Part shown: piece by piece, positions 1-6,000 of the stretch | Numbering within the stretch: position 1 is the stretch's first letter | Layout: every line of letters starts with the position of its first letter | Virus record (IMG/VR): IMGVR_UViG_2540341031_000012 | Direction: 5' to 3' (one strand) | Source: a virus | Taxonomy: Duplodnaviria; Heunggongvirae; Uroviricota; Caudoviricetes | DNA: 17,650 bases | Program-made: the position numbers

Positions 1-3000
1 ATGACGAAGAAAAAAGCACATAAACCTGGTTCAGCGACCATCGCGCTTAACAAGCGCGCCCGTCACGAATACTTTATCGAAGAAGAGTTCGAAGCGGGAC
101 TTGCCCTGCAAGGCTGGGAGGTTAAATCCCTGCGCGCAGGAAAAGCCAATATCAGCGACAGCTACGTCCTTCTGCGTGACGGAGAGGCATTTCTGTTTGG
201 CGCTAACATCACGCCAATGGCCGTGGCCTCCACGCATGTGGTGTGCGATCCTACCCGTACCCGCAAGTTACTTCTCAACCAACGCGAACTGGACTCATTG
301 TACGGTCGCGTCAATCGAGAAGGCTATACCGTAGTGGCGCTCTCCCTGTACTGGAAAAATGCCTGGTGCAAAGTGAAAATCGGCGTCGCCAAAGGTAAAA
401 AACAGCACGATAAACGTTCAGATATCAAAGAACGCGAATGGCAGGTGGATAAAGCACGTATCATGAAAAACGCCCACCGTTAAACCTGCACTCCAATTAT
501 TGACCAGTTCCTCACCGCGCCTCCCTCTCCGGCGGCGCGAATGAACATCTTATTGGCTATCACATCCGACACAAATGTTGCCATCCCATTGCTTAATCGA
601 ATAAAAATCAGGCTACATGGGTGCTAAATCTTTAACGATAACGCCATTGAGGCTGGTCATGGCGCTCATAAATCTGGTATACTTACCTTTACACATTGGG
701 GCTGATTCTGGATTCGACGGGATTTGCGAAACCCAAGGTGCATGCCGAGGGGCGGTTGGCCTCGTAAAAAGCCGCAAAAAATAGTCGCAAACGACGAAAA
801 CTACGCTTTAGCAGCTTAATAACCTGCTTAGAGCCCTCTCTCCCTAGCCTCCGCTCTTAGGACGGGGATCAAGAGAGGTCAAACCCAAAAGAGATCGCGT
901 GGAAGCCCTGCCTGGGGTTGAAGCGTTAAAACTTAATCAGGCTAGTTTGTTAGTGGCGTGTCCGTCCGCAGCTGGCAAGCGAATGTAAAGACTGACTAAG
1001 CATGTAGTACCGAGGATGTAGGAATTTCGGACGCGGGTTCAACTCCCGCCAGCTCCACCACTTACTCTTCCGGATACGTCCGGACAAATCCTGAAAGCCC
1101 GCATGGCACAAGCCCTGCGGGCTTTTTTGTGTCTACTGTTGTCCGAGGATATCCAGCTAAATCCAGTGATTATTGGTATACGTTTAGGTATACGGTAGGA
1201 TGTATACCTAAAGGCGTATACCAATTCATGAAGGAGCGGCCAAAGTGGCAAGAACGACACGCCCCCTGAGCAACACAGAAGTTCTGCGCGCTAAAGCGTT
1301 AGAAAAGGATCTAACGTTGCATGATGGCGATGGTCTTTTTCTGCTCGTTAAAACGAACGGTAAGAAGTTATGGCGTTTCCGTTATCAACGTCCAGCAACA
1401 AAGCAGCGAACAATGATAGGGCTAGGTGCCTTCCCCGCCCTTTCACTTGCTGATGCCCGACGGTTAAGAGCGGATTATCTTTCCTTGTTAGCCAACGGAA
1501 TTGACCCGCAAATTCAAGCTGAAATTGCAGAGGAACAGCAGCAAATCGCACTAGACAGTATTTTTTCAACGGTCGCCACTAACTGGTTCCAGCTTAAAAG
1601 CAAAAGCGTTACCCATGATTACGCGAAAGACATTTGGCGTTCACTAGAAAAAGATGTATTCCCTGCCATCGGTGAGATCCCTGTTCAGCAAATCAAAGCC
1701 CGAACACTTGTTGAAGCCCTTGAGCCAATCAAAGCTCGTGGGGCGCTAGAGACCCTTCGTCGTCTGGTGCAGCGCATTAACGAGATAATGATTTATGCCG
1801 TAAACACTGGTCTGATTGATGCAAATCCAGCATCTGGTATTGGGATGGCTTTTGAGAAACCTAAAAAGCAAAACATGCCGACGCTCCGGCCAGAGGAATT
1901 ATCGAAGCTGATGCGTTCTTTGATTATGTCTAATCTGTCTGTTCCGACTCGCTGTCTAATTGAATGGCAACTCCTGACCATGGTGCGCCCTTCTGAGGCC
2001 TCCGGTGCTCGGTGGGCAGAGTTCGATCTCGATTCAAAGTTCTGGACGATTCCAGCAGAACGGATGAAGGCCAAGCGTGAGCACATTGTTCCTCTGTCTC
2101 CACAGGCATTAGAAATTCTGAAAGTAATGAAACCAATCAGTGCTCATCGTGAACATGTTTTTCCCAGTAGAAATGCCCCTAAACAGTCAATGAATAGCCA
2201 AACTGCTAATGCAGCACTCAAACGCATTGGTTATGGAGGGAAATTAGTTGCTCATGGGTTACGATCCATCGCAAGTACTGCGCTCAATGAAGCCGGATTT
2301 AATCCTGATGTAATTGAAGCAGCACTTGCTCACTGTGATAAGAATGAAGTTCGAAGAGCATATAATCGATCCATTTATCTAGAGCAACGCATTACATTGA
2401 TGGAATGGTGGGGTAATTATGTTCATAATCAAAAACTCATATCGTACAGTTTAAATCATTGCTAAAAAACATCATTCAAATACACAGAAACGAAATAAAA
2501 ACTGCACAATGTTAACTTTTCAAAGATGGCTCAATAAGAGCCATCTTTAATTTTAACGTTTAGTCACTGTTATGCTCGTGCTGAAAGGAGGATATGCTGA
2601 AGTTGAATGCACTTCATCATAAACTGCTACCACATTACCACTTTCATCTAATTGATGATAAACATACTCATCATTATCGCGTCCTCTTTTTAATCCTTTC
2701 CACTCCATTGATACTTGTTCAATAGTATGGTTATCTGGAATTGAAAATTTCTTTCTAACATTATCTGACATAATTAAAGCCCTTTCATTTTTGTCTAATT
2801 AAAATATCTTTAACATTCGACCATTCATTTAACAAACCAATATTCACATTACCATCTGCAACTCTCACATTAATAACCTCCGGTCTTAAGCCTGATAATT
2901 CATGAAGAAGCCTTGAGCTTTCAATAGAAAATGCTTTGAGAGAGTTAAATCCAATTATCACCCGATTAAAATACTGCTCACTTATTCGCTGAACACCTAA

Positions 3001-6000
3001 AGTCAAATCATTTGGATCCAAACATATCTGTATTGCGAATTGCCCATCCATTATGAACACAGCGTGTACATTATTTTTAAGAAACTCAGCTCTAACTTCT
3101 TGAAGATCAGTTAAAATATAAATTAAAACATCATTCTGCAAAAAAGCAACCAACGCCTCTTTTTCTAGGGACAAAGTAAAAGGATATGCAGTCCCCCAAC
3201 TTTCCTCAGGAGTAAGCGAGTGTATTAGTGTCGACTCCCCAATATCTATACCAATACAATTTTCCATTGCGTTTTCTAGTTGCTTTTTAGGCAAGTCAGT
3301 TCTTACACAAAAATAAACAAGCCCCCTTTCAACCTCTTTACTAGCATATCCATCAATGAGGGATTGTTTTATTAAGAAGTTGATATCCTCATAAAAGGTA
3401 ATTTCTTCACCTTTATTTTCAACCCTATATGCATCCAATCCATTTTTGAAAGAAGGTGCATAGTCATTTCTATAAAACTCTGATAACTTATGCAATTCAA
3501 CCAATTGTCTGCTAACTCTTGCCCTAGGTTTTTTTTGCATTTTTCTCTTTACCTCAATAGGGACAGGATCACTCATTCCTAACGCACAAACATCCCCATG
3601 ACGTATGACATTAGTAATATCACACAAAACCACTGGAATATTGCATCGCAGCCCCATTTTGAAAACCTTCCACTCTTGCCTGAACCCCTCTTTTCCTGAA
3701 ATAAAACCTGCATCTTCCTTTACATTATAGTCATCATCATAATATAGAACTTTCAAATTAGAGTTCGGAACATAAATATTTGCAATGCCATCCCCGAAAA
3801 ATCGCCACGTGACTATCAATTCTTTCCTAGCACTCAGCCTAGAATCTATTTTTTTAAGAATTTCCTTTATACCTTTTGACTCTACCTTATTTAACCTCCC
3901 ACTTCCTTTTATTTTCTTTAAGCGCGCACGTGCTTTCTTAAGTCGGTGTATTCTCTTTTCTTCCTTAACTATTTTTCGTATTAAGAACTTATGAAACTCA
4001 AGCAATAAATAATAATTACCCGGTTCTTTTTTTAAATCACTTATAAACCTTGATGCTTCAACAAAACCACATTGATATTGAGGAAAACGCATGAGCCACC
4101 CCGTTACATTTCACTGATAATCATAGAAAAACTCATAGTGAGGTGCAGGTCAAGCAACAATTTTGAAAATTGCGTAGTTCCCCCTCATAATTTACTTATT
4201 GGGTTTTTATATACACTTAAGATAAAAAAATCTCAGCTAAATTCGTAGATCGTTTCTGATTCAGATGCATTGGCAGTTTATGGTCACCACAGGAAAGAAT
4301 ACTTCAGGTTAATATCTATAACCGAAGTGAGCGGTTTCAGAAGCAACAGAATCGGCATCATACCCACTATCCCCCCCCCTACTCAGCTCTGTGATACGTT
4401 CAGGCCGTAAAAAAATAAATAAACAGTTAATGCATGCGCGCGGTGCTTTCCCCGCCTCGCCCGCCCGCTTTGCAGGGCGGTTTTAATGCAGTTGCACAGT
4501 CACGCTCAGGCCGCGCCGGGAATGGCGCGGTCTGCAGAAAATGAGGCAGGGAAACGCATGCAAAGCCATGCACCTTATCGATGCATGGCTTTTTTCAGTA
4601 AAAACGGGCGGATTTTCGGGGAATTTTACACAGACTGACGTGATGCCAGTTGCGCACTTTTACGCGAAAAAATCATGTTCTGCGCAGGGGTGAATTTTTC
4701 ACGGCTGTCATCCACCGAAGCCGCGTCAGGCCTGAATCCGATGGTCGTTAAAATGTCGCTATCCTGTGCGGAATAATTAATTTTTTCCCCCTTCGCAAGC
4801 CAGGACAGGAGGGCTTCACGCAGGGCATCTGTGGCACGCTGTATGGCACAGTTTCGGGCAATGGCCGTCAGCTCACTGTAGCCCATCAGCTCCGGTGCCA
4901 GTGCGGCCGCCAGTACTGTGCCGTGCTGCTGCATAAAATCATTCAGCCGGTCGCGGATGCTGATGTGCTGAACGGCTTCATGCGAACGAATATAACGACT
5001 GGCGGCCTGATTCACCTGCCATTTTCTGACTTCGATAATATTGCGTAATTCGTCCAGGCGACTGACGTTTCTGCCTTCTCCTGACAGAAGCCGCAGGTAT
5101 TCCTGTTCGGCCGCTGCCAGCTCATTTTTGCGTTGCAGCCATGCTGCTTTGTTATTCTGACAGGTGTCAAAGGCCTGCTGTAAGGCTGTGCTTTCCATCG
5201 TTATCTCTTTCTCATCATGCTGAAGAATAAAAATACGGTGTGCGGCGACGGCCGGTGTTAACCGGCAGCCCTCATTCCAGACGCAGCGAATATGATTGTG
5301 TTTTTAACCGTACTGGCGGCAGTTCCTGTTTTTCATGCAGGCATTCTGCCAGTTCGTCCGGTGTGACCGGGCGGACAATGAAGCGGTTGATGGTCTGAAG
5401 CGTTTTAAACACCAGACCACAGCCCGGATCCGTGCACACATAAAAACGTTCGGTGACTTCCTGAGACAGACGCCGCGATGTTCTTGACAGTGCAAGGCCT
5501 TTACATCTCCGACAACAATATCCGGTAACAAGCATTCTTTTCGGGCGCTTCATGCTACCGGAGGCTGACGTCAGTGAATCGCGGTATCTCTGTTTGCCTG
5601 AAATGTATTCCATTCCTGAATCTTTACAGTCAGAGAAAAAGCTTTCACTCGCTTCAAATGTCGCAGAGCAATAAATATTCCGGCACTGTGCAATCATTAT
5701 CTTGGTGCCATCGTCCATGAAATGTGCGCGACGGGTGTGAGCAACATGTCCACACGACGGGCAGTAAATCATGACAGCAGTCCTCTGGCCTTAAGCTCTG
5801 CTCCCTGCTGGTCTATTTTGTCCTGCCACACCTTGCGCTGTGCCGGTGTGCCTGCCACCTCATAATCCATGTGCGGGAGTGTTGCCGCTGACAGTCCGGT
5901 CAGCCGGAGAACCGGCTCGCCGGTGAGGCTGATTTGCATCTGTTTTATTTTCTGTTCCAGCGATGATTTCACCTGCTGCATGACAGCTTTATCGGGTGCG

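What the first reader, a model, noticed from the sequence alone, without database searches (positions are those of the whole stretch)
2522..4400. Uncharacterised two-gene cassette in the cos-int cargo hotspot of a P4-like satellite
Between cos (4443-4461) and int, where P4 carries the accessory gop/beta/cII genes, this element has a visibly AT-rich operon: a 435-aa protein followed 13 nt later by a 72-aa protein. It has its own upstream AT-rich promoter region and a strong terminator (2522-2548). The rest of the element is GC-rich, so the cassette looks like a swapped-in module. In P4-like satellites this interval has been reported as a hotspot for anti-phage defence systems (Rousset et al. 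2022, as I recall). I recognise neither protein, and a large effector followed by a small partner fits toxin/antitoxin or abortive-infection designs. It could also be a divergent gop/beta pair.
Basis: partly seen in the sequence, partly recalled or inferred. Interest (0 to 1): 0.85.

Follow-up and report, generated by a model that had tools for sequence, protein, structure and literature searches.

The report
Untested nuclease cargo in P4 hotspot
The AT-rich two-gene insert between cos and the integrase of this E. coli P4-like satellite is real, and its large gene most likely encodes a Holliday-junction-resolvase-like nuclease used as an anti-phage weapon, but the cassette is already listed, untested, in two published surveys.

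Summary
Two co-oriented genes on the minus strand (435 aa at 2785-4092, 72 aa at 2553-2771, 13 nt apart) lie in a 32-37% GC block between the P4/P2 cos site and int of a P4-like satellite next to ssrA. Both are under purifying selection.

The cassette is not a gop/beta pair and matches no Pfam, NCBIfam or PADLOC model. The large protein founds an unannotated family of about 970 clusters. Its core carries a near-invariant E...D...ExK motif. Sequence profile and fold comparison each rank archaeal Hjc first, both below significance.

Relatives sit in the equivalent P2 hotspot (gpA-Q) and directly beside Gabija, Ppl and PDC-S32 in other bacteria. The 72-aa gene accompanies the large gene only in the enterobacterial branch. 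It is a pseudogene in one prophage where the large gene is intact, and it also occurs alone in other mobile elements. A strict toxin/antitoxin reading is therefore disfavoured.

The exact cassette is system #37 (43 occurrences) in Rousset 2022 Table S1B, and DefensePredictor (2026) scores the large gene as a predicted defence gene. I found no experimental test.

Verdict: a good but unvalidated candidate defence nuclease, of moderate interest.

The parts
2466..4442 (-). AT-rich hotspot cargo block between the int stop codon and the cos core
   Evidence: GC 0.32-0.37 against 0.47-0.62 in the flanks. The block is present in only 7 of 5426 complete E. coli genomes, while the cos-proximal flank is present in about 2100.
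2785..4092 (-). Large gene, 435 aa (WP_001774582.1): N-terminal helical bundle, Hjc-like PD-(D/E)xK core and a C-terminal alpha/beta domain
   Evidence: ORF. dN/dS 0.16. AlphaFold model pLDDT 85, pTM 0.84. Family of 974 clusters at 50% identity. No Pfam, NCBIfam or PADLOC hit.
3745..4092 (-). Residues 1-116: three long helices (4-22, 27-63, 69-107), including the invariant D101 in the FGDGIA motif
3418..3720 (-). Residues 125-225: predicted nuclease core. Catalytic candidates are E140 (3673-3675), D167 (3592-3594), E180 (3553-3555) and K182 (3547-3549), plus Q196
2893..3393 (-). Residues 234-400: C-terminal alpha/beta domain of unknown function, with conserved R377, E381 and S384
   Evidence: Confidently modelled (pLDDT about 90). 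No significant structural match. R377 is invariant.
2772..2784 (-). 13-nt spacer with AAGGG, identical in the diverged E. coli variant
   Evidence: In Pantoea and metagenome relatives the stop and start codons abut.
2553..2771 (-). Small gene, 72 aa (WP_001774581.1): lineage-specific accessory of unknown fold
   Evidence: ORF. dN/dS 0.11. Family of 24 clusters, 22 of them exactly 72 aa (one 44-aa fragment, one of 75 aa). No family or PDB match.
2520..2550 (.). Perfect hairpin between the convergent small gene and int: a probable shared transcription stop
   Evidence: dG -22.4 kcal/mol, z -7.1. Not called by the T-tract-dependent scan.
4093..4442 (-). Non-coding leader between cos and the start codon, containing a G8/G9 homopolymer at 4371-4379. 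The promoter was not identified
   Evidence: No consensus promoter on this strand. Mostly conserved against the LR-03 variant (243 of the 350 window bases unchanged, about 70%). The G-tract length varies among near-identical strains.
4443..4461 (-). cos core (P2/P4 19-nt cohesive end), the left boundary of the hotspot
   Evidence: Read directly. The same sequence is in the cloned P4 fragment in PMC9122126 Table S2A.
1245..2465 (+). Satellite integrase, the right boundary of the hotspot
   Evidence: Phage_integrase, Phage_int_M and Arm-DNA-bind_3. Annotated as integrase.
4626..5198 (-). psu, the conserved framework gene on the cos side
   Evidence: Pfam Psu, E 1.8e-87.

Best explanation
The block 2466-4442 is accessory cargo of the cos-adjacent hotspot of a P4-like satellite. 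It most likely serves as an anti-phage (inter-virus competition) module. The effector is the 435-aa protein, a member of a large unannotated family. Its middle part is an Hjc-like PD-(D/E)xK endonuclease (E140, D167, E180, K182). An N-terminal three-helix bundle and a C-terminal alpha/beta domain flank it. I infer that these flanks hold the nuclease in check or oligomerise it, and couple it to an infection cue. I also infer that the activated enzyme cuts DNA, most plausibly the branched or replicating DNA of an infecting phage. Nearly all relatives are single genes, so the large protein is probably a self-contained sensor-effector. The 72-aa protein is co-transcribed and probably translationally coupled. 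It is a lineage-specific add-on that modulates the large protein, or contributes a separate function, rather than an indispensable antitoxin. Shown here: anatomy, selection, family size, motif conservation, genomic contexts and lack of homology to known systems. Inferred: nuclease activity, substrate, trigger, defence phenotype and the role of the small protein.
Confidence: 0.5

Rival explanations
1. Classical toxin/antitoxin or abortive-infection pair. The large protein is a constitutively toxic nuclease, and the 72-aa protein is its dedicated antitoxin that is lost or titrated during infection.
For: The two genes are co-oriented and tightly packed: a 13-nt spacer here and abutting stop/start codons in relatives. 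They share the same dS. The reference P4 cargo gop/beta is described as TA-like. Orphan copies of the small gene in phages and plasmids could be counter-defence antitoxin mimics.
Against: The small gene is absent next to all 27 more distant large-gene homologues examined, and no other conserved partner exists. In the P2-like prophage L002 the small gene has lost its start codon and has an in-frame stop, while the large gene keeps every invariant residue. The small gene lives alone in at least four unrelated contexts.
Confidence: 0.15
2. Two unrelated cargo genes that merely travel together. The large gene is a single-gene defence or other accessory function, and the small gene is an independent moron with its own target.
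For: Each gene occurs without the other. Small-gene homologues have no recurrent neighbour.
Against: The pairing recurs in five diverged lineages (large protein at 50-86% identity) in two different hotspots, always in the same order with 0-13 nt between the genes. This is more than chance co-carriage.
Confidence: 0.15
3. The function is not defence but DNA processing for the mobile element itself. The protein would be a junction-resolving or debranching enzyme that helps the satellite or prophage replicate, recombine or be packaged, as RusA, Rap, T4 endonuclease VII or T7 endonuclease I do for their phages.
For: The best structural and sequence analogue is a Holliday junction resolvase. JGI named one homologue 'Holliday junction resolvase'. 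The gene lies next to cos.
Against: It is present in only 43 of 5,251 P4 hotspot loci and 7 of 5,426 complete genomes, so it is dispensable for the element. It has no tblastn match in 50,697 sequenced phage records. It is three times the size of known resolvases and has two extra conserved domains. Many homologues lie outside prophages, next to Gabija, Ppl or PDC-S32.
Confidence: 0.1
4. The PD-(D/E)xK resemblance is fortuitous. The protein would be a non-catalytic scaffold or an enzyme of another class, such as a sensor that acts through host factors.
For: All similarity scores are below significance. There are additional invariant residues outside the core (D101, R377), and the C-terminal domain is unassigned.
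Against: Two independent methods pick the same protein (Hjc) as top hit out of 177,635 sequences and 48,164 chains. All four catalytic positions align to near-invariant residues.
Confidence: 0.1

Closest known systems
Archaeal Holliday junction resolvase Hjc (PDB 1hh1, 2eo0, 4tkk) and the wider PD-(D/E)xK nucleases
P4 gop-beta-cII (reference cargo of the same hotspot, validated against lambda and P1 in PMC9122126)
   Same: Same position between cos/psu and int, AT-rich, with small accessory genes. By my reading of its RADLAI...FEIKSD motif, cII also looks PD-(D/E)xK-like.
   Different: No detectable homology to Gop, Beta or cII (hhalign probability <=0.3%). This cassette has two genes rather than three and no membrane protein (Table S1B lists no TM or signal peptide).
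Shedu (SduA, DUF4263): single-protein PD-(D/E)xK nuclease defence with a regulatory N-terminal domain. This comparison rests on my own knowledge of the literature and was not read here
   Same: The concept is the same: one polypeptide of about 400 aa combines a restriction-endonuclease-fold nuclease with non-catalytic domains, is carried in variable islands, and mostly needs no partner gene.
   Different: No PADLOC or Pfam match to SduA/DUF4263 at E <= 1. The domain order differs, with the nuclease in the middle rather than at the C-terminus.
Rousset et al. 2022 P4-hotspot 'system #37', and the DefensePredictor 2026 predicted cluster containing WP_001774582.1
   Same: It is the same cassette, with identical protein sequences.
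   Different: Those sources give only a catalogue entry or a score. Neither provides a domain assignment, a family analysis or an experiment.
P2 old/tin cargo of the gpA-Q hotspot
   Same: Homologues of this cassette occupy exactly that interval in P2-like prophages of Pantoea and in a metagenome contig. Old is also a nuclease-based exclusion protein.
   Different: There is no sequence relationship. PADLOC Old and GajA models do not hit the protein.

Membership tests
P4-like satellite psu/cos-int hotspot cargo (Rousset et al. 2022) | Lies between psu/cos and int of an element with P4 framework genes, with content that varies between otherwise similar elements | tested here: met
   Psu, Delta, AlpA, Ash, primase and int are present, as are the C4/isrK RNAs and cos at 4443-4461. 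The cargo is present in 7 genomes against about 2100 for the flank. It is listed as system #37.
P4 gop/beta/cII | Sequence homology to Gop, Beta or cII | tested here: not met
   hhalign probabilities are 0.2%, 0.3% and 0.2%.
PD-(D/E)xK (restriction-endonuclease-like) nucleases, Hjc-like | Conserved acidic/acidic/Lys catalytic motif (E...D...(D/E)xK) on an alpha-beta-beta-beta-alpha-beta core | tested here: met
   D167 and E180 are invariant, and E140 and K182 are >=90% conserved in 120 sequences. The helix at 135-149, strands at 154-156, 168-170 and 177-179, helix at 191-208 and strand at 211-215 are in the model.
PD-(D/E)xK (restriction-endonuclease-like) nucleases, Hjc-like | Statistically significant sequence or structure similarity to a known member | tested here: inconclusive
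PD-(D/E)xK (restriction-endonuclease-like) nucleases, Hjc-like | Metal-dependent nuclease activity | not testable with these tools
   Requires purified protein.
Type II toxin-antitoxin pair | Toxin and antitoxin genes are obligately co-inherited | tested here: not met
   The small gene is absent from 27 of the 38 large-gene loci examined, counting the window and near-duplicate copies, and is a pseudogene in L002. The small gene occurs alone in several elements.
Type II toxin-antitoxin pair | Large protein is toxic alone and neutralised by the small protein | not testable with these tools
   Requires expression experiments.
Any defence system modelled in PADLOC-DB v2.0.0 (including Shedu, Gabija, Old, PARIS, PDC candidates) | HMM match to a component | tested here: not met
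   There are 0 families at E <= 1 for either protein.
Anti-phage defence system (functional class) | Enrichment next to known defence genes or in validated hotspots | tested here: met
   It occurs in both the P4 and P2 hotspots. Gabija, Ppl, PDC-S32 and SIR2_2 are adjacent in at least 5 of 25 distant loci.
Anti-phage defence system (functional class) | Protection against phage when expressed | not testable with these tools
   It is not among the systems tested in PMC9122126. It is only predicted in PMC13092281.

The most novel reading that the evidence does not exclude
The 435-aa protein is the founding member of a widespread (about 1,000 clusters), completely unannotated single-protein immune family. 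In this reading, an Hjc-like structure-selective nuclease is gated by a helical bundle and attacks branched phage replication or recombination intermediates rather than a sequence or a base modification. The portable 72-aa protein would be its natural inhibitor. It would serve as a safety catch in the enterobacterial cassettes, and be carried alone by temperate phages and plasmids (for example Cronobacter phage phiES15) as a counter-defence.
Probability: 0.12. Interest if true: 0.8.

Novelty: new variant of a known kind. Interest (0 to 1): 0.5.

Why it matters
If validated, this would add a new and phylogenetically broad nuclease family to the catalogue of bacterial immunity, spanning Enterobacterales, Pseudomonas, Bordetella, Acidovorax, Rhodobacterales and others. 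It would assign a function to one of the many blank entries in the P4 and P2 hotspot tables. A defence nuclease built on a junction-resolvase core would suggest recognition of DNA structure, meaning replication or recombination intermediates. That recognition mode differs from restriction, CRISPR and modification-dependent enzymes. The facultative 72-aa partner, which also travels alone in phages and plasmids, offers a tractable case of how accessory regulators, or possibly counter-defences, attach to and detach from an effector. Without experiments it remains one of hundreds of comparable predicted candidates.

Tried and rejected
1. Pfam, NCBIfam and PADLOC on both proteins gave nothing. PHROGs gave only phrog_14906, of unknown function.
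2. Pfam on 120 diverse family members gave only coiled-coil noise.
5. PDB sequence searches with the full-length profiles found only coiled-coil noise. Only the core-only profile revealed Hjc.
6. hhalign against P4 Gop, Beta and cII was negative.
7. The Colicin-DNase hit of the small protein (E 0.031) was rejected. The putative HNH-like His and Asn are not conserved in the family.
9. I looked for a nuclease or other recurrent partner next to solo small genes, including the Hcp-linked loci in Yersinia and Pectobacterium. None was found.
10. No convincing sigma-70 promoter was found in the leader, and a TGT-N12-ACC element was judged wrongly placed for a P2-late-type promoter.
11. END nucleases (PMC12191111) were checked and are unrelated, being iEndoIII fusions.
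12. The first ORF listing pass suggested that L002 lacks the small gene. tblastn then showed it is present as a pseudogene.
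Full report
**What is there**

The window carries a P4-like satellite integrated immediately downstream of ssrA (tmRNA at 698-1060). Its framework genes are:
- int at 1245-2465 (+)
- psu at 4626-5198 (-)
- delta at 5272-5772 (-)
- a sid-position ORF at 5769-6569 (-)
- an AlpA-type regulator and an Ash-family protein
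- the primase-helicase alpha at 9116-11458
- the C4/isrK-type immunity RNAs at 7380-7665

An identical E. coli locus (strain TUM9757) is annotated the same way. The P2/P4 cohesive-end core GGCGAGGCGGGGAAAGCAC lies at 4461..4443. It is the same string as in the cloned P4 fragment printed in Rousset et al. 2022, Table S2A.

Between this cos core and the int stop codon lies a 2-kb block of 32-37% GC, in an element that is otherwise 47-62% GC.
- 2785-4092, 435 aa
- 2553-2771, 72 aa, separated from the first by 13 nt that include an AAGGG ribosome-binding motif

A perfect 13-bp hairpin at 2520-2550 (dG -22.4 kcal/mol, z -7.1 against shuffles) sits between the small gene and the convergent int gene. 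It has no T-tract on the cassette strand, so the consensus terminator scan missed it. No sigma-70-like promoter was found on the cassette strand in the 350-nt leader. The 'own promoter' is therefore unverified.

**Are the genes real?**

Yes. A second E. coli satellite (strain LR-03) carries a diverged copy: 86% and 92% protein identity, with the spacer identical. Nei-Gojobori dN/dS is 0.16 for the large gene and 0.11 for the small one, with the same dS of 0.397. The two genes have therefore co-diverged under purifying selection.

In strain ET846 an IS1-associated deletion has removed the whole satellite from just upstream of the cassette. Even so, int and both cassette genes remain intact.

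**Known families**

Neither protein hits Pfam, NCBIfam or PADLOC-DB 2.0 at E <= 1, apart from noise. The large protein hits only PHROG 14906, of unknown function.

Profile-profile comparison with P4 Gop, Beta and cII, using sequences taken from Table S2A of PMC9122126, gives probabilities of 0.2-0.3%. The 'divergent gop/beta' idea is refuted.

**The large protein**

A word-indexed search found 44 relatives. An exhaustive HMM search of 1.84 billion cluster representatives found 974 clusters at E <= 1e-3 and 431 at E <= 1e-30, nearly all 380-460 aa and full length. This is a sizeable but unannotated family.

In an alignment of 120 members at 22-42% identity:
- D101, D167, E180 and R377 are invariant.
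- E45, G100, K114, K125, G129, K134, G136, E140, D158, T160, N161, R164, G166, P176, K182, R192, Q196 and others are >=90% conserved.

The AlphaFold model (pLDDT 85, pTM 0.84) has three parts:
- a three-helix N-terminal bundle (1-116)
- a helix-strand-strand-strand-helix-strand unit (135-215)
- a C-terminal alpha/beta domain (234-400)

In the middle unit E140 sits on the first helix, D167 at the start of the second strand, E180-x-K182 at the end of the third strand and Q196 on the following helix. This is the canonical layout of PD-(D/E)xK nucleases.

Direct tests of that assignment gave concordant but individually weak results:
- Foldseek against the PDB gave nothing.
- A profile of the core alone (residues 120-232, 42 sequences) was searched against all 177,635 distinct PDB sequences. 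It returned four archaeal Hjc entries as the four best hits (E 0.18-0.67). The alignment places Hjc E12, D42, E55 and K57 on the family's E140, D167, E180 and K182.

Two independent methods pick the same small enzyme, and all four catalytic positions fall on near-invariant residues. I therefore rate the Hjc-like nuclease core as likely (about 0.75-0.8) but not proven. The invariant D101 in the N-terminal bundle and the R377/E381/S384 cluster in the C-terminal domain have no assigned role.

**Genomic context of the family**

The pair recurs with the same order and 0-13 nt spacing in four further lineages:
- the LR-03/ET846 variant
- two metagenome contigs with 57-58% identical large proteins
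- a contig with a 50% identical one
- a Pantoea agglomerans P2-like prophage, between the replication gene A and the portal gene Q

The A-Q interval is the tin/old hotspot that Rousset et al. describe as the P2 counterpart of the P4 hotspot. A second P2-like prophage (L002) has the large gene in the same interval.

In 25 loci from Pseudomonas, Stutzerimonas, Bordetella, Acidovorax, Massilia, Pandoraea, Stenotrophomonas, Rhodobacterales, Nitrospinaceae and Myxococcales, no neighbour is conserved. The immediate neighbours include:
- complete Gabija systems in L021 (GajA 1e-105, GajB 1e-49) and L033
- a GajA-like gene in L034
- Ppl in L019
- PDC-S32 13 nt upstream in L020
- two SIR2_2 proteins, integrases and transposases
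- a convergent PIN_12 gene in Pseudomonas L005

The large protein has no tblastn match in 50,697 GenBank phage records and only three weak matches in 72,556 plasmids. Overall this is the signature of a horizontally mobile, mostly single-gene defence candidate.

**The small protein**

Its family is small: 24 clusters, of which 22 are exactly 72 aa (one is a 44-aa fragment and one is 75 aa), with no similarity to anything known. A TRAP/MtrB match at E 0.13 is only a lead.

tblastn shows that it follows the large gene in every enterobacterial locus with >=50% identity. It is absent next to all 27 more distant homologues.

In L002 it is a pseudogene, with the start codon lost and an in-frame stop. 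The adjacent large gene there is intact and keeps all invariant residues.

It also occurs without the large gene in several places:
- the inducible Cronobacter phage phiES15 and related prophages, between the small terminase and lysis genes
- Yersinia enterocolitica plasmids and a Pectobacterium chromosome, near orphan hcp genes
- an island with CbtA/CbeA in a metagenome bin

None of these solo copies has a recurrent partner. This distribution argues against an obligate antitoxin. It favours a lineage-specific accessory, either a modulator or inhibitor of the nuclease or an independent function that became linked.

**Literature**

The exact cassette, with identical sequences, is system #37 in Table S1B of Rousset et al. 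2022 (PMC9122126). It is recorded at 43 of 5,251 P4 hotspot loci, with an empty Pfam field, no TM or signal peptide, and no note. It is absent from the table of systems they cloned and tested.

DefensePredictor (DeWeirdt, Mahoney and Laub, Science 2026, PMC13092281) lists WP_001774582.1 as a 'predicted novel defense gene'. Its mean log-odds is 5.22 against the paper's cut-off of 4. Neither that accession nor its cluster representative appears in the other supplementary files held, so I found no sign that it was among the 42 validated systems.

Full-text searches for the accessions returned nothing else. The Domainator re-analysis of P4 hotspots does not discuss it.

**Conclusion**

- The hotspot-cargo reading is correct.
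- The gop/beta alternative is refuted.
- The TA design is disfavoured.

The most likely function is an anti-phage nuclease that is autonomous in most of its family and has acquired a small accessory protein in Enterobacterales. The existence of the cassette and its candidate-defence status are already on record.

What this analysis adds:
- the Hjc-like core with its catalytic residues
- the true size and breadth of the family
- its presence in both the P2 and P4 hotspots and beside Gabija, Ppl and PDC-S32
- the facultative, independently mobile nature of the 72-aa gene

No experiment exists. Interest is moderate (0.5). In kind, this is a new variant of the known class of nuclease-based hotspot defence cargo.

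Noticed in passing
window 4371-4379: A homopolymer (G9 on the cassette strand) in the leader, about 280 nt upstream of the large gene. It is the only indel site among 99.5-100% identical copies in five E. coli genomes (G9 in two, G8 in three, one of which also lacks the adjacent A). This could be slipped-strand variation or homopolymer sequencing error.
   Followed up: partly
L044 (E. coli ET846, NZ_CP100895) 1846-5500: The satellite has been deleted from just upstream of the cassette (IS1, then a truncated amylase gene), but int and both cassette genes are intact. This is consistent with selection to retain the cargo after the satellite decayed.
   Followed up: partly
L002 9336-9557: In a P2-like prophage from a metagenome assembly, the 72-aa gene downstream of an intact large gene is a pseudogene (no start codon, one in-frame stop). 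It is a single assembly, so an assembly error cannot be excluded.
   Followed up: partly
window 698-1060 and 1245-2465: The satellite sits directly 3' of ssrA (tmRNA), with its integrase 185 nt downstream. This is the ssrA island site rather than the tRNA-Leu site of reference P4. The attL/attR repeats were not mapped.
   Followed up: no
window 7380-7665: Rfam C4 antisense RNA, c4-a1b1 targets and isrK were found together. This is the P4-type RNA immunity region.
   Followed up: no
window 16277-17650: A second AT-rich gene (GC about 0.33), outside the satellite, runs off the window end. It encodes DUF5507 plus DUF5508 (E 1e-110 and 1e-178), function unknown. It lies beyond the AIDA-type autotransporter at 12464-15493 (YpjA/EhaD-like).
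   Followed up: no
window 2553-2771; A7: The small-protein profile has a weak match to the TRAP (MtrB) RNA-binding attenuation protein (E 0.13, residues 21-56), a protein of similar size that forms rings. The family splits into an HSTS clade (paired or solo) and a DSTS clade (solo in lambdoid prophages).
   Followed up: partly
L001 (E. coli TUM9757) 19880-21849 and 24426-27041: The copy of this satellite that is 100% identical over the cassette is interrupted by IS21 in sid and by an IS66-family element upstream of alpha. The window's copy lacks both insertions.
   Followed up: no
L006-L009 and L014: Solo copies of the 72-aa gene lie within 2 kb of orphan hcp (T6SS) genes, on Yersinia enterocolitica plasmids and in Pectobacterium aroidearum. 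In Yersinia the neighbour is a DUF2971 protein. No link to the nuclease family was found.
   Followed up: partly
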